Source: a bacterium
GTDB lineage: Bacteria; Patescibacteriota; Minisyncoccia; Phycocordibacterales; CAIZLB01
Length of the DNA: 64,000 nucleotides
Reading direction: 5' to 3'
Assembly (NCBI GenBank): GCA_031411135.1
Contig: JANOAN010000013.1
Coordinates: forward strand, 152,424-216,423
Both the position numbers and the translations under genes were made by a program. The notes beneath the pieces are model-generated. The model had not been told where the DNA came from. It did not search any database and was given only the letters and a program-made list of their open reading frames with translations. Shown here in pieces: positions 2,219 to 62,877 of the stretch (the first letter of the stretch is position 1; each line of letters begins with the position of its first letter).

Positions 2219-5074
2219 CTACCCAAACGGGTTCACCTTCGGTGCTGGTGCCACCGGATCCTTTCTATACTTCTTCATCACTTCCGTCTCAATCTCCTCT
2301 CTATTTCTTCCAAGCTTCAACCCTGAAAGCTCCTTCAACTTGTCTGCAATATCAGGATCTCCCTTATCAGGCCATGTAAATTCAATATTAAAAGGTCGAA
2401 CAGGCTTACCCCCTGAAAGCATTCTGAGGTAACAATTCATATTGTCGTTGTTCATAATATCGTTCGCCGTAAAAACAGGCTCAAATTGTTTCTGTAAAAA
2501 TTCTGCATCTTCAGAACCTACTCTGAATACCGCCATTGAACCGACGTTTCCAAAGACCGCATCTTTGATTTTTTCATCCAATTGTGCGATGAATTGGTGA
2601 GCGATATTTAAAGAAAGTTTATATTTTCGTGCCTCTGACAAAATGGTTGAAATCGAAGGAGTAGTGATGTTTTGGAACTCGTCGATATATAGGTAGAAAG
2701 GATTCATGTGTTTACCGAATGAATCTACTCGAGAAAGTGCTGCCATTAAAATCTTTCCTACAAGAATAAGACCGATCAAAGACGCGTTGATATCTCCCAA
2801 TCTTCCCTTCGCAAGATTCACAAGGAGAATTTTCTTACTGTCCATAATATCTCTGAAATCAAATGATGATTTTTCTTGCGCGATAATAGGGCGCATAATG
2901 TCGTTTGCTAGGAACACGTCGAATTTGCTGACGATATAAGGCACAATGTTGGCTAGTGATCCTTCCCCACCTGCCTTTTCAGCAATCTCCTTCCAAAATT
3001 GAACAATGATAGGATTTTTACATTTTGAAACCTTCATATCACGGAAGCTTTTCACTGAAAGCACTCGAGAAACTTCCAACAATGTTGATCCACTCTCAGG
3101 ATCTTCAATAACCAACATAGCAGCATTTCTAAAATATTGCTCGAACATTGGACCCATTGATTCTGGATTTGCACCATAGAGCTTTTGGAAAATACTAAAT
3201 AATTCATTTACAACAAAGATTTTTTGATCTGGGAACGAATGGTTGTATTCAAGCATGTTTAATGCCATCGGCCGATCAGTATTTGAAGGGTCAAAATAAA
3301 TCACATCATCATAACGCTCTGGTGGAATATGGGCCAAAATCTCTTGAACATCGGATCCGTGCGGGTCAATAAAGCACACACCATCACCATTTTTAATATC
3401 TTGAATAATCATATTTCGAAGCATTGTCGATTTACCAGTACCTGTCTGTCCAATTGCATAGAAATGTCTGAGGCGATCTTCCGGAGTAATAAAAATATCA
3501 GTCGTCAGATTGCGATGTTTATTTTTACCAAGGAATAGGCCATCCTTTGAAAGCCCGAGTGGAGCAGGCGCTGTCCCTGCCTTTGATTGTTTCAATTGAG
3601 GCGAATTGCTCTGCCCCACTGGGAAATGCACCAATGAAGTTAGTTCTCGAATCGAAGTCGGTAATGCACATTCAGAAACGAAATCACGGTAGGTAAAGTG
3701 ATGTAACGTATCGATCAAATCCGATTTCTTCTGACGCTTGAATTCCAAAGTGTTCCCGAGCGAATTTTGGAACTGATTAAAAGCTGATTCAATATCGGCC
3801 AAGATCGCTTCCGCTCTCATGCCATTTTCAGCACTCGCAACAATGCGAATATTTGATTCAATAACAGGGGTCGCTAATTTTAATTTGATTTGTTCGGATG
3901 TAATTTGATCCACTACCTGTTCCTTTTCCTTATTTTTTTCCTTTTCCTCCTGCTTTTCAGAACTAAATATTTCCTTGGCAAAATCTTCTCCGCTTTCTTT
4001 GACTGCTTTTGTGAATTCACCCCATAATGTATGCCTAATATCTAATGCCTTGTTAACCTTAGTACCCTTTTGAATTTCATCCAAAGCTTCCTTATAGAGC
4101 TTTACATAGTAATCCCCCATTGGATTAATTACGATTTGAACCGCAGCGCCCTCCCCGTCTTTTTTGATCTTTGAAAGTGTATTCAAGAGCACGTTCAATG
4201 GGTCGTAATCAAACTGATCATAAGTTTTTATAGGATAAATCGGGTTTTTAGATTGCTTGGCAATACTGGCAACTGACACTCCATCAGTATTAAAAACATT
4301 GTAGTCATCTTTTTTCTCGGCAATTTTGGCATTCGGAAAAATCGAAAGAATCTGTTTTTCAAAAAGCGCGGTTTTATCATCTGGAATTGAAACATAAAAA
4401 ATAAATTCTTCACTACCCTCAGAAACCGCCAGCTCAATCGTAAAGTGATTATTACTGTGCCCCGCTTCATTTGAAAGATCTGCGGTTGAAAGCATACCTG
4501 CATAAAATTGCTCCATCGATGAAAGCATTTCTTTCAGTTGTTTTTCTTTGTCTTCTTTTTTAGTTTCAGGAAGAGCCACTTCGTACAAAGTATGTCGCAA
4601 AGTCCTGTCAAGCGGCGTTTTTTCCTTTAAACCCTTTACGTCAAAACCTTTTTTGATGTACTCAACAATGAAACGGTGGAAGTCGTCATCAATATGAGGA
4701 TTCCCGAGGTGACGGATAATATCAATCGTGTTTTTGATACCTTTTTCATTAAGCAGAGAAAGCAGCTCTTCAATTTTTTTATCATGAGTTTCAGGGGTTA
4801 GTTCAAGTACAATTTCTTTTTTCTCAGTATCTGGAGTTTTGAAAGATTCATGAAGGACCCTGCTTGCATCATGTTTGGTGTAGTCTTTAATTTCTTCTTC
4901 AATGATTTTCTCACGCTCAAACTTCTCCCCTCTTTCGGTTGCAGTATTTTCACGCTCCGCGACCACTTTGCGTAAATAATTTAACTCCTCCTCGGCAGAA
5001 GTAAATTGTTTATTGTCATATGAAAAATGTTCTTGTTCTTTCATTTTTAGGCCTTTTAAACTATTATACTCCAT
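2219..5074 (-). CDS. large P-loop ATPase of the type IV secretion / conjugation family (VirD4/TraD- or VirB4-like), with long charged N-terminal region
   Basis: Walker A GQTGTGKST; CFIDPHGSD...YFDPSN; YLYIDEFQN; ARKYKLSLNIAHQ. These are characteristic of TraG/VirD4/VirB4-type DNA/protein translocation ATPases. 951 aa. Confidence 0.55.
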   Translation of the reverse strand: MEYNSLKGLKMKEQEHFSYDNKQFTSAEEELNYLRKVVAERENTATERGEKFEREKIIEEEIKDYTKHDASRVLHESFKTPDTEKKEIVLELTPETHDKKIEELLSLLNEKGIKNTIDIIRHLGNPHIDDDFHRFIVEYIKKGFDVKGLKEKTPLDRTLRHTLYEVALPETKKEDKEKQLKEMLSSMEQFYAGMLSTADLSNEAGHSNNHFTIELAVSEGSEEFIFYVSIPDDKTALFEKQILSIFPNAKIAEKKDDYNVFNTDGVSVASIAKQSKNPIYPIKTYDQFDYDPLNVLLNTLSKIKKDGEGAAVQIVINPMGDYYVKLYKEALDEIQKGTKVNKALDIRHTLWGEFTKAVKESGEDFAKEIFSSEKQEEKEKNKEKEQVVDQITSEQIKLKLATPVIESNIRIVASAENGMRAEAILADIESAFNQFQNSLGNTLEFKRQKKSDLIDTLHHFTYRDFVSECALPTSIRELTSLVHFPVGQSNSPQLKQSKAGTAPAPLGLSKDGLFLGKNKHRNLTTDIFITPEDRLRHFYAIGQTGTGKSTMLRNMIIQDIKNGDGVCFIDPHGSDVQEILAHIPPERYDDVIYFDPSNTDRPMALNMLEYNHSFPDQKIFVVNELFSIFQKLYGANPESMGPMFEQYFRNAAMLVIEDPESGSTLLEVSRVLSVKSFRDMKVSKCKNPIIVQFWKEIAEKAGGEGSLANIVPYIVSKFDVFLANDIMRPIIAQEKSSFDFRDIMDSKKILLVNLAKGRLGDINASLIGLILVGKILMAALSRVDSFGKHMNPFYLYIDEFQNITTPSISTILSEARKYKLSLNIAHQFIAQLDEKIKDAVFGNVGSMAVFRVGSEDAEFLQKQFEPVFTANDIMNNDNMNCYLRMLSGGKPVRPFNIEFTWPDKGDPDIADKLKELSGLKLGRNREEIETEVMKKYRKDPVAPAPKVNPFG

Positions 5075-25748: not shown

Positions 25749-26057
25749 ATGAATCAACTTGCCAGGCGATCAGACGTAAAAGCCTTGGTAGTATTGCGAA
25801 AGCTGAGAATGATCAGGGGGGTAGATCACCCACTCGGTCAGCTCATCGGTTTCGGTATCAGAAAAGTAGATGCTGATGCGACCCTTCCCCTTGAAGTCAT
25901 AGGAACGGTCAAGAGCTGTCCCTGTACAACATGGGGTCAACTGGAAAACGCCATTTACTACCTGCTGAAGATGGCCGGAGTACGTGACGCAAGTAGCGAC
26001 TACTTCGTGGAAACCGAAGCAGCAAAACTAAATCGTGATCTTCCGATTATGATCTAA
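25749..26057 (+). CDS. hypothetical protein (GC-elevated)
   Basis: 102-aa ORF divergent from rpsL, about 50 percent GC. No recognisable motif. Confidence 0.35.
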   Translation: MNQLARRSDVKALVVLRKLRMIRGVDHPLGQLIGFGIRKVDADATLPLEVIGTVKSCPCTTWGQLENAIYYLLKMAGVRDASSDYFVETEAAKLNRDLPIMI

Positions 26058-26113
26058 GCCCCCCCCTCAAGAGAAAAGTCCCTAGGACGCACTCTCGCGG
26101 CGGGCTTTTTCTT

Positions 26114-31125: not shown

Positions 31126-32058
31126 TTACTTCAAATTCTGATACCCCACAACTATTGCCTCGGCAATAAATAGTTCCAAGTGAGAGTAATTATCATGCTC
31201 TTGGGCTTGTTCAAGGTAAGTGTAGTATAGAATCTTTTTTTCTTTTTCAATAATAGAAGGAGAGATTTTGTGCGACAAAAGCATTGTATTAAGTAGTAGT
31301 CTCCTCACTCTACCGTTCCCATCGGAAAAAGGATGAATCTTTTCAAACCTCGCGTGTATTTCAGAGGATTTTTTTATGAAATCCCTGTTATTTAATTTTT
31401 TCGCTTCATTAATTTCATTAACTAAGATCTCCATTAATTCTGGTACTCTAATATAATTAGCTGTAACAACATTTGTTCCAGCAATTCTCACACCGTGATT
31501 TCTGTAATTTCCGGCATTATCCATAATGCCATTCATGAGTATTTCGTGAAGCCTTTTGATATACCTCCCATCTAGATCTTTTTTTGAAGCGAGAAAGTCA
31601 AACATGTACTGAATAGCCACTTTGTGGTTCTTGGCTTCTATTTGCTCAACAAGGGTTTTATTTTTAAGATTCGTATTCTCAAAAATTACCATAGCAGTTT
31701 CTCTTTCAGTTAAAGTACTACCCTCTATAGCATCAGAATGGTAAGTTGACCTGACGCAAAAATGTTCATATAAATCTTTTCTTTGTAAAACGAGATTCAA
31801 TGGATCACTTATTAGTTGTGAAAAGTTTAATATTTGATCGTAAACTTTTTCAAGTTCGAGACTGGAAACTTCACCTTTTCCTGTATATTTATCATAAAGA
31901 TCATTGATTTTATTCAAAGCTTTTGGTCGAGGTGAGGATTTACCGAGAAACCATGCATTAAACGCAGGAAAACTCACACCAAACATGCTAGCAAGCTCGG
32001 TCTGCGTAAAATTCAATTTTTCCTGAATTTTTCTTAATTTTTCCTGAGTTTCGGTCAT
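31126..32058 (-). CDS. Fic family protein with N-terminal HTH
   Basis: HPFSDGNGRVRR (HPFx[DE]GNGR Fic motif). N-terminal XRE-like HTH. Confidence 0.85.
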   Translation of the reverse strand: MTETQEKLRKIQEKLNFTQTELASMFGVSFPAFNAWFLGKSSPRPKALNKINDLYDKYTGKGEVSSLELEKVYDQILNFSQLISDPLNLVLQRKDLYEHFCVRSTYHSDAIEGSTLTERETAMVIFENTNLKNKTLVEQIEAKNHKVAIQYMFDFLASKKDLDGRYIKRLHEILMNGIMDNAGNYRNHGVRIAGTNVVTANYIRVPELMEILVNEINEAKKLNNRDFIKKSSEIHARFEKIHPFSDGNGRVRRLLLNTMLLSHKISPSIIEKEKKILYYTYLEQAQEHDNYSHLELFIAEAIVVGYQNLK

Positions 32059-32115: not shown

Positions 32116-32838
32116 TTATTTACTAAATTCCCTTACAATCTCTTCCTCATCAACTTTTGAAATTGATTTTTTAAACAAAGCTTTCTTTCCGTGTACTCTT
32201 TTTTTACATTCATCCCAAGTTTGATCAATATTAATTTTTCCTTGAACCATGCTGACATATGAGAATGCTGGTGATTTATTCTTTGATGATTTTTTAGTTG
32301 GAACTCCAACTTTAATATTTAAAACCACATCCTTGTTTGGATACTCGGCTAAAAACCCACTGTACAAATCTGGCTTCTTTCCATCCGCATAAGCAGTCGC
32401 AATTTCATCGCACCTCTCGTTTCCAAAAATTTCGCTGTGCCCTTTCAAAAGAGTCCATTTGATTTCTTTTCCTTTTAATACAGAATCCATTTCTTGCCAC
32501 AAATCTATGTTTTTAACTTCTTCTTTTGTTGAACTGATCCAGTTTTTAGCTTTCCATCCGTGAAGCCATTTTGTAGCACCGTTTAACACATATGCGGAAT
32601 CTAATCTAACTTCATATTTTGTAACAGTACCTTTAGCATAGTAGTCATCAAAGAATTTTAAACCTTCAATTACAGCCTTTAATTCCATTCGGTTGTTGGT
32701 TGTTAAGTCCTCTCGGCCCCCTCTTTCGTCAATTCGCATTTCGTCAGCGTCGTTTGGGTATATACAGATAAAGCCGTAGCCACCAGGGCCAGGGTTTCCG
32801 CGAGATGATCCGTCGGTGTAGATGGTGATGGGTTTCAT
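32116..32838 (-). CDS. rnhA: ribonuclease HI with C-terminal RNA/DNA hybrid-binding domain (HBD)
   Basis: TDGSSRGNPGPGGYG...TNNRMELKA RNase H core. C-terminal FSYVSMVQGK...TWDECKKRVHG...KKF resembles the hybrid-binding (caulimovirus viroplasmin-like) domain. Starts 8 nt after the RT stop. Confidence 0.8.
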   Translation of the reverse strand: MKPITIYTDGSSRGNPGPGGYGFICIYPNDADEMRIDERGGREDLTTNNRMELKAVIEGLKFFDDYYAKGTVTKYEVRLDSAYVLNGATKWLHGWKAKNWISSTKEEVKNIDLWQEMDSVLKGKEIKWTLLKGHSEIFGNERCDEIATAYADGKKPDLYSGFLAEYPNKDVVLNIKVGVPTKKSSKNKSPAFSYVSMVQGKINIDQTWDECKKRVHGKKALFKKSISKVDEEEIVREFSK

Positions 32839-32846
32839 GAGGGGTA

Positions 32847-33830
32847 TTATAACACCTGGTCTATTTGCTCTACTAATTTTCTAGAATTTCCATGAGACAA
32901 AAGCCCTAAATATGACTGTGCCACCTCATCAATCTTGTTATCTTTTAAATTCCTAAACATCCTACGTTTTGCCGCGGATCTTAAAACCCGACAATCTGTA
33001 AAATGTACCCATCCCAAAAAATCTACACCTGGTGCAAGAGTCCGTATAAAAATTTTGTCCGGGTGAAGAGAAAGTTTTAGTCTTGATAGCAAAAAATCGT
33101 GAATTTTTGACAGCACATTTTCTAGCCACGACTTGTCCTTGTTCATAATTACAAAATCATCAGCATACCGGATATAATATTTCGCTTTTATCTTGTGTTT
33201 AACAAACTGGTCAAACTCATTCATGTAAATATTAACTAACAATTGAGACGTAAGATTACCTAAAGGCAACCCTTTACCTACAGCAGTGCTGTGAAAACTT
33301 GAAAGTATGCGATTGAGCAACCAAATAATATCCTGATCCTGTATGTGCACTTTTAATATTTCTACTAACACACTTTGATCAATTGAGGCAAAGAATTTCC
33401 TGATATCGCATTTTAAAACCCAAAGCGTTTTTGAATAATTATTACTCGCTTTATAGGAATATTTTCTAAACTGATTTAATGCTTTGTGTGTTCCTTTACC
33501 TAACCTGCACGAATAGGAGCTTGAACTAAATTTTCGATCAAAATACGGGTACAAGATTCGGTATATTGCATGGTGAAGCAACCTGTCTCTCACTTTTGCT
33601 TTATGAATATTTCTTGGCTTTGGGTCAGAAATATTGAAAGCTTCATACTCTCCATGCATATATGTCTTATGAACAAGGTCGTTATGTAGAGAAATAATAT
33701 TATGCATTAAATTACGCTCAAATTCCTGCGTATCCTTTCTTCCTCTTTTGCCACGGATAAATTCCTGCCAAGCTTCGAGCAAATTTTCCAAAGAGATGAT
33801 ATCTTTATACTTAAAAATAAAAAAAGACAC
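32847..33830 (-). CDS. DGR-type reverse transcriptase
   Basis: RT motifs DIRKFFASID, LPLGNLTSQ (DGR-specific [I/L]GxxxSQ) and YADDFVIM. GTG start. Adjacent to Avd and TR. Confidence 0.9.
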   Translation of the reverse strand: MSFFIFKYKDIISLENLLEAWQEFIRGKRGRKDTQEFERNLMHNIISLHNDLVHKTYMHGEYEAFNISDPKPRNIHKAKVRDRLLHHAIYRILYPYFDRKFSSSSYSCRLGKGTHKALNQFRKYSYKASNNYSKTLWVLKCDIRKFFASIDQSVLVEILKVHIQDQDIIWLLNRILSSFHSTAVGKGLPLGNLTSQLLVNIYMNEFDQFVKHKIKAKYYIRYADDFVIMNKDKSWLENVLSKIHDFLLSRLKLSLHPDKIFIRTLAPGVDFLGWVHFTDCRVLRSAAKRRMFRNLKDNKIDEVAQSYLGLLSHGNSRKLVEQIDQVL

Positions 33831-33833
33831 ACC

Positions 33834-34223
33834 ATGAATACTACACCCCCCCCGAGAATGCTACCAGTGCTTCAGCGTCTAAAAAGCCTCTATATCTTGT
33901 GGCATGACTACTACCAAACCATACCAAAAATCCACAGACACTCTCTTGGTCAGAGAATCGATACTTTATTTGTGGAAACCATCGAGGCAATATCGGTTGC
34001 AAGCTTTTTATCTAAAGATGAAAAGCAACCTTGGGTTCGGTTAGCTATACGAAAAGTTGATACTACTAAGATACTTTTGATGGTGTTATGGGAAACCAAA
34101 TCTCTAGATAATAAAAAATATATAGCCCTTTCTGGACCCATAGATGAAATAGGAAAAATGCTTGGCGGATGGCAAGGACAGATAGCAGCGCAACTTTCTA
34201 AACAAAACTCCTCCGCCATATAG
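33834..34223 (+). CDS. avd: DGR accessory variability determinant (Avd)
   Basis: 129-aa four-helix-bundle-like protein that aligns with Bordetella-phage Avd (YILWHDYYQTIPK..., ...IDEIGKMLGGW). Encoded divergently from the RT. Confidence 0.75.
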   Translation: MNTTPPPRMLPVLQRLKSLYILWHDYYQTIPKIHRHSLGQRIDTLFVETIEAISVASFLSKDEKQPWVRLAIRKVDTTKILLMVLWETKSLDNKKYIALSGPIDEIGKMLGGWQGQIAAQLSKQNSSAI

Positions 34224-34243
34224 ACAGAGGAGAAATGAAAAGA

Positions 34244-34371
34244 TTTGCGAAACCCAAAGCAGTATTGTTGGCGTTACGGTTGTTGTCGAGCCAGTTGGCA
34301 TTCCAGTTCCAGGAGCCATCATCGTTCCGATAGAGATACAGGGCGTTCCGGTTGCCGTTCGGGTTGCGAAG
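34244..34371 (-). repeat. DGR template repeat (TR), 128 nt, adenine-rich on minus strand (AAY codons)
   Basis: Identical to 34772-34899 except at 21 positions that are all T on the plus strand (A on the minus strand). Encodes NRNALYLYRNDDGSWNWNANWLDNNRNANNTALGFAN. Confidence 0.9.
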
Positions 34372-34641
34372 AATTGTATAAAGCACCGCCTATTTCACCA
34401 CCCCTTGAAGTCCCGTGACGATCTCAGGATTGAATCGTATTCGGCATCGTAATGCCATAGTGCCTTACACCAAGTATCTTCATTTTTGTTGAAGTGTCTG
34501 CATGCACCACTCTACCTGAAGCCTTGACCGCAGATACTCTCGATGCACGGATACTGGATTCGGTAGGAAGAAACCTTAATCTCTTCCATATTCACCTACT
34601 ACCGCTTTTTATCTTATCCTAAAAAATTAAATTTTGATATA

Positions 34642-34670
34642 GAAAAACCCCGCGCAAATGCAACGGGGCT
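34642..34670 (-). terminator. intrinsic terminator downstream of the DGR target gene
   Basis: ccccg-cgcaaatgcaa-cgggg with a T-run on the minus strand. Confidence 0.6.
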
Positions 34671-34767
34671 GGAAGATTTGGAGTTGTATCTTGCCATAAC
34701 TTACTTTTTGAGCCGAAGAGCAAAGTTCAAAGGGTCAGAGGAGACCACAGTGTCCAAAGCCCGAGAG

Positions 34768-35397
34768 CTACTCTGCGAAACCCAAAGCAGTATCGCTGGC
34801 GCTACGGCTGCGGTCGAGCCAGCCGGCACTCCAGTCCCAGGAGCCACCATCGCGCCGATAGAGACACAGGGCGCCCCGGCGGCCGTACGGGCTGCGAAGG
34901 GTGGTTCCGAGGAATTCGATCCAGCTGACGTTGAGGGTCTTGTGGAGCCACTTCAAGGTCGTCTGGTTCTCTTCCTTGTAAAGCGCTTCGCCGATCTTGG
35001 CATCCGCTTGGATCGCTTTCAGCAGGAGCCGTGCGCGTTTCTCTTCGCCGGTGACTGTGGTTTCGTCATCGATGAGGCCCGTCTGTGCGATGAGCTTCGT
35101 CGGGTCGAGTTCGGTGATGGCGAGCGAGCTCTTGTCCTGCTCTTCGTCGCCTTTGAGTCCATCGCCGTCCTTCGGTCCGCGCCAGATGCTCCAGCCTTCG
35201 CCGGTGAACGTGGCGGGGTCGAACGGAGTGGTGCGGTCGATCTTCAGGACTTGTGGTTTAAGGACGTGTTCGAGGGGAACGACGACGGTTTCGCCACGAA
35301 GGAATTTCAACGCTCCTGGCGTTCCTCCGAGCTTTTTTACGATTGCATTCAATTGCCCACCTGTAAGGTCGGCCATTGCGAATTTATCTTCTGACAT
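34768..35397 (-). CDS. DGR target protein (hypothetical, C-terminal C-type-lectin/FGE-like variable region)
   Basis: 209 aa, about 58 percent GC. C-terminus LYRRDGGSWDWSAGWLDRSRSASDTALGFAE is the VR-encoded counterpart of the TR peptide. Confidence 0.85.
   Translation of the reverse strand: MSEDKFAMADLTGGQLNAIVKKLGGTPGALKFLRGETVVVPLEHVLKPQVLKIDRTTPFDPATFTGEGWSIWRGPKDGDGLKGDEEQDKSSLAITELDPTKLIAQTGLIDDETTVTGEEKRARLLLKAIQADAKIGEALYKEENQTTLKWLHKTLNVSWIEFLGTTLRSPYGRRGALCLYRRDGGSWDWSAGWLDRSRSASDTALGFAE
34772..34899 (-). repeat. DGR variable repeat (VR) at 3-prime end of target gene
   Basis: 128-nt ungapped match to the TR with substitutions only at TR adenines (17 A>G, 3 A>C, 1 A>T). Confidence 0.9.
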
Positions 35398-35606: not shown

Positions 35607-37262
35607 TCACCTCCCTTTCAAAATCTCCACCGCCCTTAACCTCAACTCCGGTCGCCCTTTAAAACTCGACTTCTCAACCGTCGCAACCATATCAATCACA
35701 TCATTCACCGCCACCACAATATCACTGAAAAAACTAATCGCCGGAAGTATCGCACCATTCTCGTCACCTACCCTAACCTCAACATGCTCCTGCGCCTTTC
35801 CAAATTTTTTATACCCAACCACCGTCACCTTCTGAAGCATAAAAAGTGGTTTTGAATTATTCACCCCAAACGGCACCATCTTCTCAAGAGCATCCCAAAA
35901 CTTCCAATTAATGTCGGATACATTTAGTAAACTATCAACTTCAACTGTCGCATCAACATCACTTAATGAAACCTTACTCATCGCATTAACGAGGTGTTCT
36001 GAAATTAAATGAATATGATCATCGTTTACTGCAAAGCCTCCAGACATCGCGTGTCCACCCGCTTCTTTAAATACCCCCTCTTGAACTGCATTCATTAAAT
36101 CTACCAAATGATACGATCCATTTGATCGGCAAGAACCTTTAATAACCCCCTCTTCATCCCTTCCCCACACAAACGCCGGTTTGTTATAATCTCTCATCAA
36201 ACTATTTGCCACAAGTCCCAATAGTGCCGGCTTCCAATTTGGATTTCCAACCACAATTAGTGGTGCATTATTAAAATCCTCATCTTTGTGATTTTTCTTT
36301 ATATCCTTTGAAATCAACGCAACTTGGACTTTTCTCTCGGTATTTATATCTGTTAAAACTTTGCAAAGACTTTTTGCTTTAACGACATCATCTGTTGAAA
36401 GTAATTCAAAAGCAATCACAGGATCTGCCATTCGAGACGCTGCGTTAATGCGAGGGGTAACCAGAAATTGAATATCATCCTCAGTTGCTGTTTTCGGATC
36501 CAGTTTTAAAGAAAGAAAAAGTTGCTGCAAACCTACACGCATATTTTTCTTCATCACCTTTAATCCATACGAAGCTAAAATTCTATTCTCTCCAATCAAA
36601 GGGACCATGTCAGACAAAGTCGCAAGCCCCACCATATCCAAGGACCACTTCTCCATTCCATCTTTTATCTCAAATTTTTTGTACAGTGCTTGAATTAATT
36701 TGTAAACTACACCCGAACCACACAAAATCTTTTCAGGATATGTGCACCCCGGTTGTTGCGGATCCAAAATCGCATAAGCTTCTGGAAGTTTCTCATGAGG
36801 TAAGTGGTGATCGGTAATTATGACCTGTATTCCCAATGAATTTGCATGTGCAACCTCATCAACGTCAGCAATTCCGCAATCTGCTGTAATTAACAATTTC
36901 GCACCCTGAGATGCAATCTTTTCAACCGCATCACTATTCAATCCAAAACCTTCCTTGTGTCGATGTGGGATATAGAACATAACATTGTCATATGAAATCT
37001 TTTTAAAGAAATCATGAAAAACCACTCCGGCAGGAATTCCATCTGCATCGTAATCTGTGTAGATACAAATTTTTTCTTTATTTTTTACAGCCTCAAATAC
37101 CCTTAGAACCACCTTCTCCATGTCTTTCATTAGATACGAATCATAAGTTCCCTTGTCATAATCAGGGTTTAAAAAGGCCTCCTTATCCTTAACTCCTCTG
37201 TGAAAAAGTAGATGATCAATCAAACTTCCCTCTGCCATGTCTCGAATGCGGTATTTTGCCAT
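35607..37262 (-). CDS. recJ: single-stranded-DNA-specific exonuclease RecJ
   Basis: DHH (ITDHH) and DHHA1 (GGHAMSGG) motifs. 551 aa. Confidence 0.85.
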   Translation of the reverse strand: MAKYRIRDMAEGSLIDHLLFHRGVKDKEAFLNPDYDKGTYDSYLMKDMEKVVLRVFEAVKNKEKICIYTDYDADGIPAGVVFHDFFKKISYDNVMFYIPHRHKEGFGLNSDAVEKIASQGAKLLITADCGIADVDEVAHANSLGIQVIITDHHLPHEKLPEAYAILDPQQPGCTYPEKILCGSGVVYKLIQALYKKFEIKDGMEKWSLDMVGLATLSDMVPLIGENRILASYGLKVMKKNMRVGLQQLFLSLKLDPKTATEDDIQFLVTPRINAASRMADPVIAFELLSTDDVVKAKSLCKVLTDINTERKVQVALISKDIKKNHKDEDFNNAPLIVVGNPNWKPALLGLVANSLMRDYNKPAFVWGRDEEGVIKGSCRSNGSYHLVDLMNAVQEGVFKEAGGHAMSGGFAVNDDHIHLISEHLVNAMSKVSLSDVDATVEVDSLLNVSDINWKFWDALEKMVPFGVNNSKPLFMLQKVTVVGYKKFGKAQEHVEVRVGDENGAILPAISFFSDIVVAVNDVIDMVATVEKSSFKGRPELRLRAVEILKGR

Positions 37263-61416: not shown

Positions 61417-62877
61417 GTGAAGATAGATACAACTAAAATTCCACAGGAAATCAAAGATGTTTCTGCAAAATTAATTGCGGGAGGTTTTGAAGCGTATATT
61501 GTTGGTGGATGCGTCCGAGATCTTGTCATTGGTAGAATTCCAAAAGACTGGGATCTCACGACCAACGCCACACCCGAGCAAATGATTCCCCTCTTTGAGA
61601 AAACTTTTTATGAAAACGACTTTGGAACAGTCGGTGTGGTAATTTCTGAAGACAGAACAGTTGAAGTAACCCCTTATCGCTTAGAATCGGCCTATAGCGA
61701 CAACAGACATCCTGACAAGGTGACTTTCAGCGATAAACTTGAAGATGACCTTAAACGTCGAGATTTTACGATTAACGCGCTGGCAGCGGATGTGATTAAA
61801 GGTGAAGTTGTAGATAATTTTGATGGACTTAAAGATATTGAATCAAAAACAATCCGCGCTGTAGGAAATCCTGATAAACGTTTTACAGAAGATGCCCTAC
61901 GACTAATCAGAGCGATCCGTTTTTCAGCAGAGCTTGGTTTTACTATCGAACACGAAACGCAGAATTCGATTATTAAACATTCAGACTACATCAGAAATAT
62001 TTCTATTGAACGCATTCGAGATGAGCTTACTAAAATAATTGCATCTGATAACCCGATGATGGGTTTTGTATTTCTTGAGAAGCTTGGATTGCTAAAGCAT
62101 TTTCTCCCGGAAATTTCTACTGCAGTTGGTGTAACTCAAAACCAAGCGCATTCATTCGATGTGTTTGAACATTTATTGCGAAGCCTTCAGTGTGCAGCGG
62201 ATAAAAAATACCCTTTTTACGTTCGTGTTGCTGCCCTTTTCCATGATATTGGAAAGCCTGCAAGTAAACGCAACATTAAAGGCGGAAAGGATTGTACATT
62301 TTACGGACATGAAGTTGTCGGAGCAAAAATGACAGCGGAAATTCTAAAGAGAATGAAGTTTACAAATGAAAATATTAAACTTGTTGTTAGTTTAGTTAGA
62401 TGGCATATGTTTTTCTCCGACACGGAACAGATTTCCCTTTCGGCGGTACGAAGAATTATTCGAAACGTTGGACCGGATCATATTTGGGATTTGGTTAACC
62501 TTAGAATCTGCGATCGTATTGGAACAGGGCGGCCAAAGGAGGATCCTTATAGATTAAGGAAGTACATGTCGATGATTGAAGAAATATTACGAGAACCTGT
62601 GTCTGTTTCAAAATTAAAAATTGGAGGAAATGAACTTATGAAGCTTGCTGATTTGAAACCGGGACCAAAAATCGGTTTTATTTTGAATATTTTGTTGGAG
62701 GAAGTAATTGATGATCAGGGAAAAAATACAGAAGAGAATTTGAAAAATAGAGCTCTTGAATTAAACAAACTTAGTTTGGAGGATTTAAAGTTGATGAATG
62801 CGAGAGCACTACAGGCAAAAGAAAATGCGGAGAGTTTGGAGATACAGGAGTTGCGGGATAAGCATAGGGTGAATTAA
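61417..62877 (+). CDS. cca: CCA-adding tRNA nucleotidyltransferase with HD domain
   Basis: GGCVRDL...D head-domain motif and LFHDIGKP HD motif. 486 aa. Confidence 0.85.
   Translation: MKIDTTKIPQEIKDVSAKLIAGGFEAYIVGGCVRDLVIGRIPKDWDLTTNATPEQMIPLFEKTFYENDFGTVGVVISEDRTVEVTPYRLESAYSDNRHPDKVTFSDKLEDDLKRRDFTINALAADVIKGEVVDNFDGLKDIESKTIRAVGNPDKRFTEDALRLIRAIRFSAELGFTIEHETQNSIIKHSDYIRNISIERIRDELTKIIASDNPMMGFVFLEKLGLLKHFLPEISTAVGVTQNQAHSFDVFEHLLRSLQCAADKKYPFYVRVAALFHDIGKPASKRNIKGGKDCTFYGHEVVGAKMTAEILKRMKFTNENIKLVVSLVRWHMFFSDTEQISLSAVRRIIRNVGPDHIWDLVNLRICDRIGTGRPKEDPYRLRKYMSMIEEILREPVSVSKLKIGGNELMKLADLKPGPKIGFILNILLEEVIDDQGKNTEENLKNRALELNKLSLEDLKLMNARALQAKENAESLEIQELRDKHRVN

What the first reader, a model, noticed from the sequence alone, without database searches (positions are those of the whole stretch)
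33780..34380. Unusual DGR architecture: avd is divergent from the RT with only 3 nt between start codons, and lies between TR and RT on the opposite strand
The RT GTG start sits at 33828-33830 on the minus strand and the avd ATG at 33834-33836 on the plus strand. Each gene's promoter must therefore lie inside the other's coding sequence. The adenine-bearing strand of the TR is the minus strand, so TR RNA has to be made by right-to-left transcription that reads antisense through avd before reaching the RT. This differs from the canonical target-VR / avd / TR / RT co-linear layout. It raises the possibility of antisense regulation of avd by the TR-RT transcript.
Basis: partly seen in the sequence, partly recalled or inferred. 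Interest (0 to 1): 0.55.

Follow-up and report, generated by a model that had tools for sequence, protein, structure and literature searches.

The report
CPR-type DGR with divergent avd
The back-to-back avd and reverse-transcriptase genes are real, but this is the published standard layout of diversity-generating retroelements in candidate-phyla-radiation (CPR) bacteria; the less ordinary features are a slippage-prone C/G run between the two genes and a self-contained, structured template RNA.

Summary
The RT is at 32847-33830(-), avd at 33834-34223(+), TR at 34246-34371(-) and VR at 34774-34899(-). All 20 TR/VR mismatches fall at TR adenines.

The layout is not unusual for this lineage. It is 'Architecture B3, TR-(avd)-RT' of Wu et al. 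2018, reported for 90% of their CPR set. I found it in 138 of 138 related loci.

The inferred TR-to-RT transcript reading antisense through avd is not supported:
- The TR sits in its own RNA gene of about 400 nt.
- That gene has a conserved -10 box and a 230-nt 5' domain backed by covariation (39 of 42 pairs).
- It ends in a conserved hairpin plus U-tract inside avd's last codons.
- The body of avd shows no extra synonymous constraint.
- The RT has a -10-like box 7 nt before its start, as many genes in this genome do.

Inside the flagged interval lies a C8/G8 run (33846-33853):
- It is conserved as G6-G14 in 123 of 138 loci and replaced by other simple repeats in 11.
- Its length differs between otherwise identical contigs.
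- In the closest relative, one extra C puts avd out of frame.

A phase-variable avd switch is plausible but unproven.

The parts
34768..35397 (-). DGR target gene (209 aa) with the VR at its 3' end. About 57-62% GC in a genome of about 35% GC.
   Evidence: ORF. The VR is in frame with its C-terminus. GC profile. No Pfam, NCBIfam or PDB sequence match.
34774..34899 (-). Variable repeat (VR)
   Evidence: 84% identical to the TR. All 20 differences are at TR adenines.
34640..34668 (-). Terminator-like GC hairpin (CCCCG...CGGGG) plus a T-run, downstream of the target gene
   Evidence: Read by eye. The scan did not list it because its loop is 11 nt. The equivalent 'GCGGGG + T-run' appears in the clade consensus.
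34611..34616 (-). -10 box (TAAGAT) of the predicted promoter of the TR RNA. The clade consensus is TTTTTTTG-n-TAnAAT (extended -10).
   Evidence: T31, A32 and T36 of the first row of alignment A2 are at least 90% conserved in 83 loci. Consensus.
34372..34603 (-). Structured 5' domain of the TR RNA, about 230 nt, with helices P1, P2 and a long-range P3 that closes just 5' of the TR
   Evidence: RNAalifold: 39 of 42 pairs show compensatory changes. 95% of cells are paired, against 74% in shuffles (0 of 500) and 33-59% with slid partners. Weak partial Rfam RT-7 match at 34488-34543.
34246..34371 (-). Template repeat (TR), 126 nt with 33 adenines
34198..34232 (-). Hairpin CTCCTCTGTC-TATAT-GGCGGAGGAG plus TTTTGTTTAG: predicted intrinsic terminator of the TR RNA, overlapping the last codons and stop of avd on the other strand
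   Evidence: 10 pairs, 6 G-C. (dG -20.1 kcal/mol, z -5.1). Conserved in 79 of 94 loci against 37 of 469 controls. Strong synonymous constraint in avd is confined to these codons.
33834..34223 (+). avd (129 aa from ATG 33834, or 121 aa from ATG 33858)
   Evidence: Pfam bAvd and NCBIfam Avd matches. Found on the opposite strand next to the RT in 138 of 138 relatives.
33846..33853 (.). Simple-sequence repeat: C8 on the avd strand (codons 5-7, Pro-Pro-Pro) and G8 on the RT strand, 15 nt upstream of the RT start
   Evidence: G6-G14 in 123 of 138 loci; other simple repeats at the same spot in 11. Of 149 G/C runs of 7 nt or more in 1.06 Mb of loci, 118 are at this junction. Tract length varies between otherwise identical contigs.
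33838..33843 (-). -10-like hexamer TAGTAT, 7 nt upstream of the RT GTG (leaderless-type geometry)
   Evidence: Read. In relatives the run is followed by TAnnnT (T 86, A 63, T 76 of 120), and the RT ATG lies 13 nt after the run in 39 loci. The closest relatives have TACTAT-N7-ATG and TAGATT-N7-ATG. In this genome 12 of 62 genes have TAnnnT ending 6 nt before the start, against about 1.1 expected.
32847..33830 (-). DGR reverse transcriptase (327 aa, GTG start), with the motif LGNLTSQ
   Evidence: RVT_1 E 9.2e-24. 60-82% identical to RTs from Patescibacteria metagenome-assembled genomes that carry TR/VR pairs.

Best explanation
This is a complete diversity-generating retroelement (DGR) of the candidate-phyla-radiation (CPR, Patescibacteria) clade. 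Its layout is the published 'B3' order: target/VR, then TR, then avd on the reverse strand, then RT. It most likely works as four separate transcription units rather than one operon.

1. The target gene, followed by its own terminator-like hairpin.
2. A discrete non-coding RNA of about 400 nt on the RT strand. It has its own -10 promoter (34616->34611), a 230-nt structured 5' domain, the 126-nt TR, and a hairpin plus U-tract terminator (34232->34198) that lies inside the last codons of avd.
3. avd, transcribed towards that RNA, so only the two 3' ends overlap.
4. The RT, started from a -10-like box 7 nt upstream of its GTG (leaderless-type, as for many genes of this genome).

RT and Avd would then act in trans on the TR RNA to make adenine-mutagenised cDNA that replaces the VR.

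Between avd and RT sits a hypermutable C/G homopolymer. In this window it lies inside the 5' end of the avd reading frame. I think it most likely acts as a slipped-strand on/off (phase-variation) switch on Avd, and hence on DGR activity.

Shown: the anatomy, its conservation, the RNA covariation and the tract-length polymorphism.
Inferred: transcript ends, leaderless RT expression and the switching function.

My confidence by part:
- About 0.95 that this is a B3-type CPR DGR.
- About 0.7 that the TR RNA is a separate terminated transcript.
- About 0.45 that the repeat is a functional switch.
For: Identity as a DGR:
- RVT_1, bAvd and Avd profile matches.
- 20 of 20 TR/VR mismatches at TR adenines, 11 AAC codons.

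Known architecture:
- Wu et al. 2018 B3 = TR-(avd)-RT, 90% of their CPR set.
- avd is adjacent and opposite to the RT in 138 of 138 loci.
- The TR lies on the RT strand next to the avd stop in 97 of 107 loci. The most common gap is 6 nt.

Separate TR RNA:
- The whole VR-to-TR interval is conserved and contains TTTTTTTG-n-TAnAAT.
- Covariation: 39 of 42 pairs; 95% paired against 74% in shuffles; covariation score 0.684 against 0.287.
- The hairpin plus U-tract is present in 79 of 94 loci against 37 of 469 controls, with dG -20.1 and z -5.1 in the window.
- Synonymous entropy of avd is 0.85-1.0 of expectation through most of the gene body. It is about 0.72 at the first two codons after the run and 0.21-0.54 in the last six or so codons.

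RT promoter:
- TAnnnT follows the run directly, and the ATG is 13 nt after the run in 39 loci.
- The closest relatives have TACTAT-N7-ATG and TAGATT-N7-ATG.
- This genome has a leaderless signature: 12 of 62 genes against 1.1 expected, and few Shine-Dalgarno motifs.

Repeat:
- Its positional conservation, and its replacement by (GT)n, (GA)n, (CT)n, (CTGG)n and (TGATTGC)n.
- 118 of 149 long G/C runs lie at the junction.
- Length differences with identical flanks: G13/G11, G11/G8 and (CTGG)10/9.
- G10/G11 variants within three of four populations that share an identical RT protein, with avd gene calls changing accordingly.
- The closest relative has the same upstream ATG but C9, which leaves an intact avd ORF out of frame with no other start.
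- 45 of 98 loci have no start codon between the run and the conserved helix. Of these, 15 are in frame and 30 out of frame with an upstream start.
Against: - No transcript data. Promoter, terminator and leaderless starts are consensus-level inferences, and terminator read-through into antisense avd cannot be excluded.
- The window's TR-RNA -10 box (TAAGAT) and the RT's GTG start are weaker than the clade consensus.
- The 1:2 in-frame to out-of-frame ratio is what chance would give if upstream ATGs were irrelevant.
- About half of the loci have TTG just after the run (47 of 97, against 17% TTG among Leu codons elsewhere in avd). That could be a constitutive start that makes the run part of the 5' UTR.
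- Run length is not compensated by linker length (rho -0.10, p 0.42), so a promoter-spacing role has no support.
- A 1-nt difference in a G10 run between assemblies can be an assembly or sequencing error. The differences of 2 nt, 3 nt and one 4-nt unit are harder to dismiss that way.
- In BPP-1 the essential RNA element lies 3' of the TR. A 5' scaffold here is a departure that has not been tested.
Confidence: 0.7

Rival explanations
1. The TR is transcribed as part of a long minus-strand RNA that runs antisense through avd into the RT. That RNA both supplies the RT message and down-regulates avd by antisense pairing or transcriptional interference.
For: TR and RT are on the same strand with only avd between them. 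Intrinsic terminators are rarely 100% efficient. The convergent overlap of the avd and TR-RNA 3' ends is real.
Against: A conserved hairpin plus U-tract follows the TR directly (79 of 94 loci). Antisense to the avd body there is no synonymous-site constraint. The RT has its own -10-like box at leaderless spacing in the window and its closest relatives. Wu et al. note that TR and RT need not be co-transcribed.
Confidence: 0.12
2. The G/C run is a fixed expression signal rather than a switch. It might be a Shine-Dalgarno mimic or 5'-UTR element for the RT, the G at -14 of an extended -10 promoter, or a protein-binding site. Its length changes would then be tolerated noise.
For: The run lies upstream of the RT start in nearly all loci and abuts the -10-like TAnnnT. 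GGGGG can pair with the anti-Shine-Dalgarno sequence through one G-U pair (established base-pairing rule). Many loci have a TTG start for avd downstream of the run.
Against: In 11 loci the run is replaced by unrelated repeats, including (CT)n, (GT)n and (TGATTGC)n, which share only slippage-proneness. The usual 13-nt spacing to the RT ATG is long for a Shine-Dalgarno element, and this genome hardly uses them. 15 loci can start avd only by translating through the run.
Confidence: 0.25
3. The tract-length differences are assembly or sequencing artefacts, and the run is merely a conserved Pro-Pro-Pro at the Avd N-terminus.
For: Long G homopolymers are error-prone in short-read data. Most within-population differences are 1 nt. 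One contig has an N at the run edge (L175).
Against: Differences of 2 nt and 3 nt, and of one CTGG unit, occur with 600 identical flanking bases. In about 30 loci the avd frame has a stop or no start before PPP, so PPP is not always coded. Pro codons would not be held as a pure C homopolymer, and the replacement repeats have unit lengths of 2, 4 and 7 nt, none a multiple of 3.
Confidence: 0.1

Closest known systems
DGR 'Architecture B3, TR-(avd)-RT' of Wu et al. 2018 (NAR 46:11, PMC5758913), which corresponds to the Patescibacteria-restricted DGR clade 2 of Roux et al. 2021 (PMC8144416)
   Same: Same component order and strands: target/VR, TR, avd reversed, RT. The RT's nearest relatives are all from CPR/Patescibacteria metagenome-assembled genomes. 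The same layout is found in 138 of 138 relatives.
   Different: Nothing at the level of architecture. The papers I could read do not mention the junction repeat, the TR-RNA promoter and terminator, or the 5' RNA domain.
Bordetella phage BPP-1 DGR (mtd-avd-TR-brt), the prototype
   Same: An RT plus Avd, a TR/VR pair with adenine-specific differences, AAC-rich TR codons, and a VR at the C-terminus of the target.
   Different: In BPP-1, avd is co-linear and upstream of the TR. The essential RNA comprises 20 nt of avd, the TR and 140 nt of spacer 3' of the TR, with priming from spacer A56 (Handa et al. 2018). Here only about 50 nt (a linker, a hairpin and a U-tract) follow the TR, and the large conserved structure is 5' of the TR.
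Simple-sequence-repeat contingency loci, for example poly-G/C tracts in Neisseria, Haemophilus and Campylobacter genes, and the (TA)n repeat between the divergent hifA/hifB promoters of H. influenzae (recalled from my own knowledge)
   Same: A homopolymer or short tandem repeat sits at the 5' end of an ORF, between divergent genes. Repeat number varies between otherwise identical sequences. Unit lengths are not multiples of three.
   Different: Not shown to switch expression here. The controlled genes would be the machinery of a second, targeted hypermutation system. The hosts are CPR bacteria, where I found no report of phase variation.
Rfam RT-associated RNA motifs of Weinberg et al. 2017 (RT-10 in the BPP-1 spacer; RT-7, RF03028)
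   Same: Structured RNAs next to RT genes. The first hairpin of RT-7 (AGAGU...GUCAAGGC...AGAGUG) resembles window 34505-34543(-).
   Different: The RT-7 match scores only 21.3 bits against a gathering score of 116.8, and the 145-nt middle of the model is absent. Relatives give no Rfam match at E <= 1. The domain here is 5' of the TR, not between TR and RT.

Membership tests
Diversity-generating retroelement (DGR) | Reverse transcriptase of the DGR type | tested here: met
   RVT_1 E 9.2e-24. The sequence contains LGNLTSQ, the [I/L]GxxxSQ motif I recall as typical of DGR RTs. Its relatives at 60-82% identity sit in cassettes with TR/VR pairs.
Diversity-generating retroelement (DGR) | TR/VR near-repeat whose differences fall at TR adenines | tested here: met
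   126 nt; 20 of 20 mismatches at TR adenines.
Diversity-generating retroelement (DGR) | VR inside the 3' end of a protein-coding target, with variable adenines at codon positions 1 and 2 | tested here: met
   The VR ends 3 nt (one codon) before the target's stop codon. 32 of 33 TR adenines are at codon positions 1 or 2, and there are 11 AAC codons.
Diversity-generating retroelement (DGR) | Avd accessory protein | tested here: met
   Pfam bAvd 41.8 bits (cut-off 40). NCBIfam NF033474 E 4.9e-15, which at 55.7 bits is below its curated cut-off of 80.
Diversity-generating retroelement (DGR) | Ongoing diversification of the VR in the population | not testable with these tools
   Needs read-level variant data. 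Only one assembled VR is available.
Architecture B3 (Wu et al. 2018), the CPR DGR clade | Core order TR-(avd)-RT with avd on the reverse strand | tested here: met
   for the window. 138 of 138 relatives. Definition.
BPP-1-type DGR RNA | A functional spacer of about 140 nt 3' of the TR on the RT strand | tested here: not met
   The 3' side of the TR is a 13-nt linker, a hairpin and a U-tract, then antisense avd without synonymous constraint.
Rho-independent terminator (3' end of the TR RNA) | G+C-rich hairpin followed by a U-tract, conserved in position | tested here: met
   Present in 79 of 94 loci against 37 of 469 controls.
Rho-independent terminator (3' end of the TR RNA) | Transcripts actually end there | not testable with these tools
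   No transcript data.
Simple-sequence-repeat contingency (phase-variation) locus | A slippage-prone repeat kept at one position across diverged relatives | tested here: met
   G6-G14 in 123 of 138 loci and other simple repeats in 11. 118 of 149 long G/C runs lie at the junction.
Simple-sequence-repeat contingency (phase-variation) locus | Repeat number differs between otherwise identical sequences | tested here: met
   G13/G11, G11/G8 and (CTGG)10/9 with identical flanks. G10/G11 within three of four same-RT populations.
Simple-sequence-repeat contingency (phase-variation) locus | A repeat-number change alters expression (reading frame or promoter) | tested here: inconclusive
   The frame relation changes: window C8 is in frame and closest relative C9 is out of frame; 15 loci are in frame and 30 out of frame. 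However, downstream TTG starts exist in 53 of 98 loci, and there is no spacing compensation.
Simple-sequence-repeat contingency (phase-variation) locus | Reversible on/off switching within a clone | not testable with these tools
   Needs cultures, reporters or read-level time series.
Rfam RT-7 (RF03028) | Score at or above the family's gathering threshold | tested here: not met
   21.3 bits against 116.8.

The most novel reading that the evidence does not exclude
CPR-clade DGRs may carry a built-in contingency switch. A hypermutable homopolymer (or other simple repeat) at the avd/RT junction would turn Avd, and so targeted hypermutation itself, on and off by slipped-strand mispairing. One mutator would then be gated by another. 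These DGRs may also use a previously undescribed template RNA of about 400 nt, with its own promoter and terminator, whose large conserved scaffold lies 5' of the TR instead of the 3' spacer used by the Bordetella phage element.
Probability: 0.4. Interest if true: 0.7.

Novelty: new member of a known kind. Interest (0 to 1): 0.38.

Why it matters
The flagged architecture is textbook for CPR DGRs, so on its own it changes nothing. The follow-up matters for two open questions about DGRs.

1. How is mutagenic retrohoming regulated? A conserved, demonstrably length-variable repeat in the avd 5' end gives a concrete hypothesis. It can be tested with existing groundwater time-series reads: does tract phase correlate with VR diversification?

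2. What RNA does a non-Bordetella DGR need? The covariation-supported 5' domain, conserved -10 box and conserved terminator define a precise RNA of about 400 nt (window roughly 34603->34198). It could be synthesised with the RT and Avd to reconstitute a CPR DGR in vitro.

The analysis also suggests that many genes of this CPR genome are expressed as leaderless mRNAs.

Tried and rejected
- Exact-sequence look-ups of the window's RT, Avd, RNase H and the annotated RT (P0001) found no other contig. Within-strain polymorphism of this very locus could therefore not be checked.
- A strain-specific flank pattern in metagenome contigs found nothing.
- Rfam: only a sub-threshold RT-7 fragment in the window, and nothing DGR-related in 14 relatives.
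- The frame of the nearest upstream ATG relative to avd looked evenly spread over offsets 0, 1 and 2 (listing, not tallied). This does not separate 'coding through the run' from 'irrelevant ATG'.
- I tested whether run length is compensated by linker length, as a fixed -35/-10 spacing would require. There is no correlation, so I do not claim a promoter-spacer mechanism.
- The antisense of the avd LPV codons (TGGCAA) matches only 3 of 6 positions of a -35 box, by eye. I rejected it as evidence.
- The sigma-70 scan of the window region gave 4 sites against 2.5 expected, none at the junction, so it is uninformative.
- Strict searching for the RT-7-like hairpin motif found it only in the window and L018.
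- The target protein has no Pfam, NCBIfam or PDB sequence match. I ran no further search on it.
- Literature searches combining DGR with phase variation or simple repeats found no paper that links them. Paul et al. 2017 could not be opened.
Full report
OBSERVATION

- On the minus strand, a 327-aa ORF runs from GTG 33830-33828 to 32847. It matches Pfam RVT_1 (E 9.2e-24) and carries LGNLTSQ, the SQ motif I recall as typical of DGR reverse transcriptases.
- On the plus strand, a 129-aa ORF runs from ATG 33834 to 34223. It matches Pfam bAvd (41.8 bits, cut-off 40). It also matches the NCBIfam Avd model NF033474 (E 4.9e-15), although 55.7 bits is below that model's curated cut-off of 80.
- TR (34246-34371) and VR (34774-34899) are 126 nt long and differ at 20 positions, every one an adenine of the minus-strand TR. 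Of the 33 TR adenines, 32 are at codon positions 1 or 2, and there are 11 AAC codons.
- The VR ends one codon before the stop codon of a 209-aa minus-strand ORF (34768-35397). No second VR exists in the window.

The '3 nt between start codons' depends on start calls.
- The public annotation of this RT uses TTG at codon 14 (P0001, 314 aa). Homologue conservation reaches residues 4-8, which favours the GTG.
- Both Avd profiles begin at residues 10-13, next to the second Met (33858).
- The closest relative keeps the upstream ATG and has Ile at the position of that Met. This favours ATG 33834.

IS IT UNUSUAL?

No. Wu et al. 2018 (PMC5758913) classify DGR cassettes and define Architecture B3 as 'TR-(avd)-RT', with parentheses marking the reverse strand. 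[quoted passage not shown] They also note that cassettes with components on different strands need at least two transcription units, and that TR and RT need not be transcribed together.

I fetched 160 loci encoding RTs 60-71% identical to this one. The 80 from species-representative genomes carry organism names, nearly all Patescibacteria/CPR or unclassified 'bacterium' metagenome-assembled genomes, with a few labelled otherwise.
- In all 138 loci with at least 450 nt upstream of the RT, an Avd homologue lies directly upstream on the opposite strand.
- In 97 of 107 loci with a detectable repeat pair, the adenine-bearing TR is on the RT strand and ends next to the avd stop. The most common gap is 6 nt; in the window it is 22 nt. 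The VR lies about 460-530 nt further upstream on the same strand.

The window is an ordinary member of this clade, which is clade 2 of Roux et al. 2021, restricted to Patescibacteria.

HOW THE TR RNA IS PROBABLY MADE

Four results argue against this.

1. The whole interval between VR and TR is conserved in sequence across 92 non-redundant loci. After the target stop comes a GC hairpin with a T-run. In the window this is 34668->34640, called by eye; the scan missed it because the loop is 11 nt. Next comes the consensus TTTTTTTG-n-TAnAAT, an extended -10 promoter. The T, A and T of this hexamer are at least 90% conserved in 83 aligned loci. The window has TAAGAT at 34616->34611.

2. The 230 nt from there to the TR form a structured RNA.
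   - RNAalifold predicts 42 pairs, 39 of them with compensatory double changes.
   - On that structure 95% of cells pair, against 74% in column shuffles (0 of 500 reach the observed value) and 33-59% when partners are slid by 1-3 columns.
   - The covariation score is 0.684, against 0.287 shuffled and 0.10-0.21 slid.
   - A long-range helix closes immediately 5' of the TR.
   - Rfam has no family for this RNA. The only signal is a partial, sub-threshold match of one hairpin to RT-7 (21.3 bits against a gathering score of 116.8). Relatives give no match.

3. Thirteen nucleotides after the TR there is a 10-bp hairpin followed by TTTTGTTT (34232->34198). Its dG is -20.1 kcal/mol with z = -5.1.
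   - A hairpin plus U-tract ends 23-49 nt after the TR in 79 of 94 non-redundant loci, against 37 of 469 random 100-nt windows.
   - The consensus is CTCTCC-loop-GGGAGAG-TTTTGTTTT.
   - It overlaps the last codons of avd on the other strand.

4. Synonymous-site entropy along 117 avd sequences is 0.85-1.0 of expectation through most of the gene. It is about 0.72 at the first two codons after the run, and it falls to 0.21-0.54 only in the last six or so codons, which are exactly those opposite the hairpin arm and U-tract. Nothing antisense to the body of avd is under extra constraint.

So there is no sign of a counterpart to the 140-nt spacer that BPP-1 needs 3' of its TR (Handa et al. 2018).

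The best reading is a discrete RNA of about 400 nt (about 34603->34198) with its own promoter and terminator. It is convergent with avd, and only the two 3' ends overlap. These are inferences from sequence. Read-through of the terminator cannot be excluded.

THE RT START

Directly after the junction run, relatives show TAnnnT (T 86, A 63, T 76 of 120). The commonest distance from the run to the RT ATG is 13 nt, in 39 loci, which is a hexamer plus 7 nt.
- The window has G8-TG-TAGTAT-N7-GTG.
- Its closest relatives have G9-TACTAT-N7-ATG and G11-TAGATT-N7-ATG.

This is how many genes of this genome look. TAnnnT ends exactly 6 nt before the start codon in 12 of 62 genes and 7 nt before it in 4 more, against about 1.1 expected per position. 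Shine-Dalgarno-like motifs are rare (6 of 38). The CCA-adding enzyme gene at 61417 even has TAGTAT-N6-GTG.

The RT therefore probably has its own, leaderless-type promoter whose -10 box lies inside the 5' end of the avd ORF. I could not identify a convincing avd promoter. TATACT at 33806-33811 is only a candidate.

THE REPEAT IN THE JUNCTION

The flagged interval contains a C8 run (33846-33853). It reads Pro-Pro-Pro in the avd frame and G8 on the RT strand.
- In an AT-rich 64-kb window it is one of only two G/C runs of 7 nt or more.
- Relatives have G6-G14 at the same place in 123 of 138 loci, most commonly G10.
- Eleven more have other simple repeats there: (GT)n, (GA)n, (CT)n, (CTGG)n/(GGCT)n and (TGATTGC)n. 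Their unit lengths are 2, 4 and 7 nt, never a multiple of three.
- Only four loci have no repeat.
- Of 149 G/C runs of 7 nt or more in 1.06 Mb of fetched loci, 118 are at this junction.

The tract is unstable.
- With 600 identical or nearly identical flanking bases, L065 and L133 have G13 and G11, L072 and L143 have G11 and G8, and L060 and L103 differ by one CTGG unit. Four other near-identical pairs are unchanged.
- Among contigs from different samples that encode exactly the same RT protein: the P0014 group has eight G10 and two G11. The P0090 group has six G10 (one with an N at the run's edge) and two G11, and avd is called as 129 aa, as 121 aa or not at all. The P0080 group has four G11 and one G10. 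The P0075 group has three G9.

What the tract does is not settled. In favour of a translational on/off switch on avd:
- 45 of 98 non-redundant loci have no ATG, GTG or TTG between the run and the conserved Leu-Pro-Val helix start.
- Fifteen of these have an in-frame start upstream of the run.
- Thirty have only out-of-frame ones, although the avd ORF is intact.
- The closest relative (RT 80% identical) has the same upstream ATGAAT...ACC but C9 instead of C8. This puts that ATG out of frame with an intact avd that has a stop just before YPPPRILPVLQ and Ile where the window has its second Met.

Against it:
- The 1:2 ratio is also the chance expectation.
- TTG is enriched at the Leu codon just after the run (47 of 97, against 17% of Leu codons elsewhere). 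It could be a run-independent start.
- Run length is not compensated by linker length (rho -0.10), so a promoter-spacing role has no support.

I put the probability that the repeat is a functional phase-variation switch at about 0.45. That it is a conserved, hypermutable element is well supported. I found no paper linking DGRs with simple-repeat phase variation, but the library is incomplete and Paul et al. 2017 could not be read.

COMPARISON AND VERDICT

By every testable defining feature this is a DGR and a member of the B3/CPR clade.

It works like the Bordetella prototype in its parts: RT, Avd, an adenine-rich TR, and a C-terminal VR. It differs in that:
- avd is inverted;
- the TR RNA appears to be an independent gene;
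- the large RNA structure is 5' rather than 3' of the TR.

'Unusual' is wrong for this lineage. The antisense read-through mechanism is not supported.

The finding as written is already in the literature, and the locus is a new member of a known kind. The junction repeat and the TR-RNA anatomy are clade-wide features I could not find described. They raise the interest somewhat and are directly testable with existing metagenome and metatranscriptome data.

Noticed in passing
window 34768-35397; loci L001-L160: The target gene body upstream of the VR is far more G+C-rich than its surroundings: 57% against 34% for the RT in the window. The same holds clade-wide (median 55% against 39%; 63 of 87 loci differ by more than 10 points). 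Unexplained.
   Followed up: partly
window, whole 64 kb: Many genes have a TAnnnT box ending 6-7 nt before the start codon (16 of 62 genes, about 1.1 expected per position) and few have Shine-Dalgarno motifs. This suggests widespread leaderless mRNAs in this CPR genome.
   Followed up: partly
window 34670-34770 (minus strand); consensus: The stretch just downstream of the VR and target stop is conserved across the clade as a run of CTT..GG-like units (CTTaGgaCTTgGtccCTTgGgTCTcCTTgGACCCTTTGacCTTtGTCC). It might be a target-site recognition element analogous to the IMH and inverted repeat of BPP-1.
   Followed up: no
window 26059-26066: The only other G/C homopolymer of 7 nt or more in the window is a C8 run. 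It starts 2 nt after the stop of a 102-aa ORF with no Pfam match (25749-26057) and lies between convergent genes.
   Followed up: partly
window 32116-32838 (-): An RNase H gene starts 8 nt after the RT stop, with its own TATAAT-N7-ATG. An RNase H homologue follows the RT in only one of the first 80 relatives (L070), so the linkage is probably incidental.
   Followed up: partly
window 34488-34543 (-); L018 about 4350-4385: A hairpin with AGAGU...GGUCAAGGC...AGAGUG resembles the first hairpin of Rfam RT-7. The exact motif occurs only in the window and L018 among 97 loci.
   Followed up: partly
L175, junction run: One assembly has an ambiguous base (N) at the edge of the G run, which would fit within-sample length heterogeneity.
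   Followed up: no
window 31126-32058 (-) and 35607-37262 (-): The cassette is flanked by a Fic/HTH gene and by recJ, with comEC-like and HIT genes nearby. There are no phage-like genes next to the DGR, so it looks chromosomal.
   Followed up: no
L005, L006, L032, L033, L074 and others, 37 nt upstream of the C run on the avd strand: The antisense of the RT's conserved His codon (CAT) gives an ATG on the avd strand. It is preceded by TATCAT-N7, the antisense of the conserved Asp-Ile codons. So a leaderless-type start for an N-terminally extended avd overlaps the first 12 RT codons in many loci. The window lacks it because it has Phe instead of His.
   Followed up: partly
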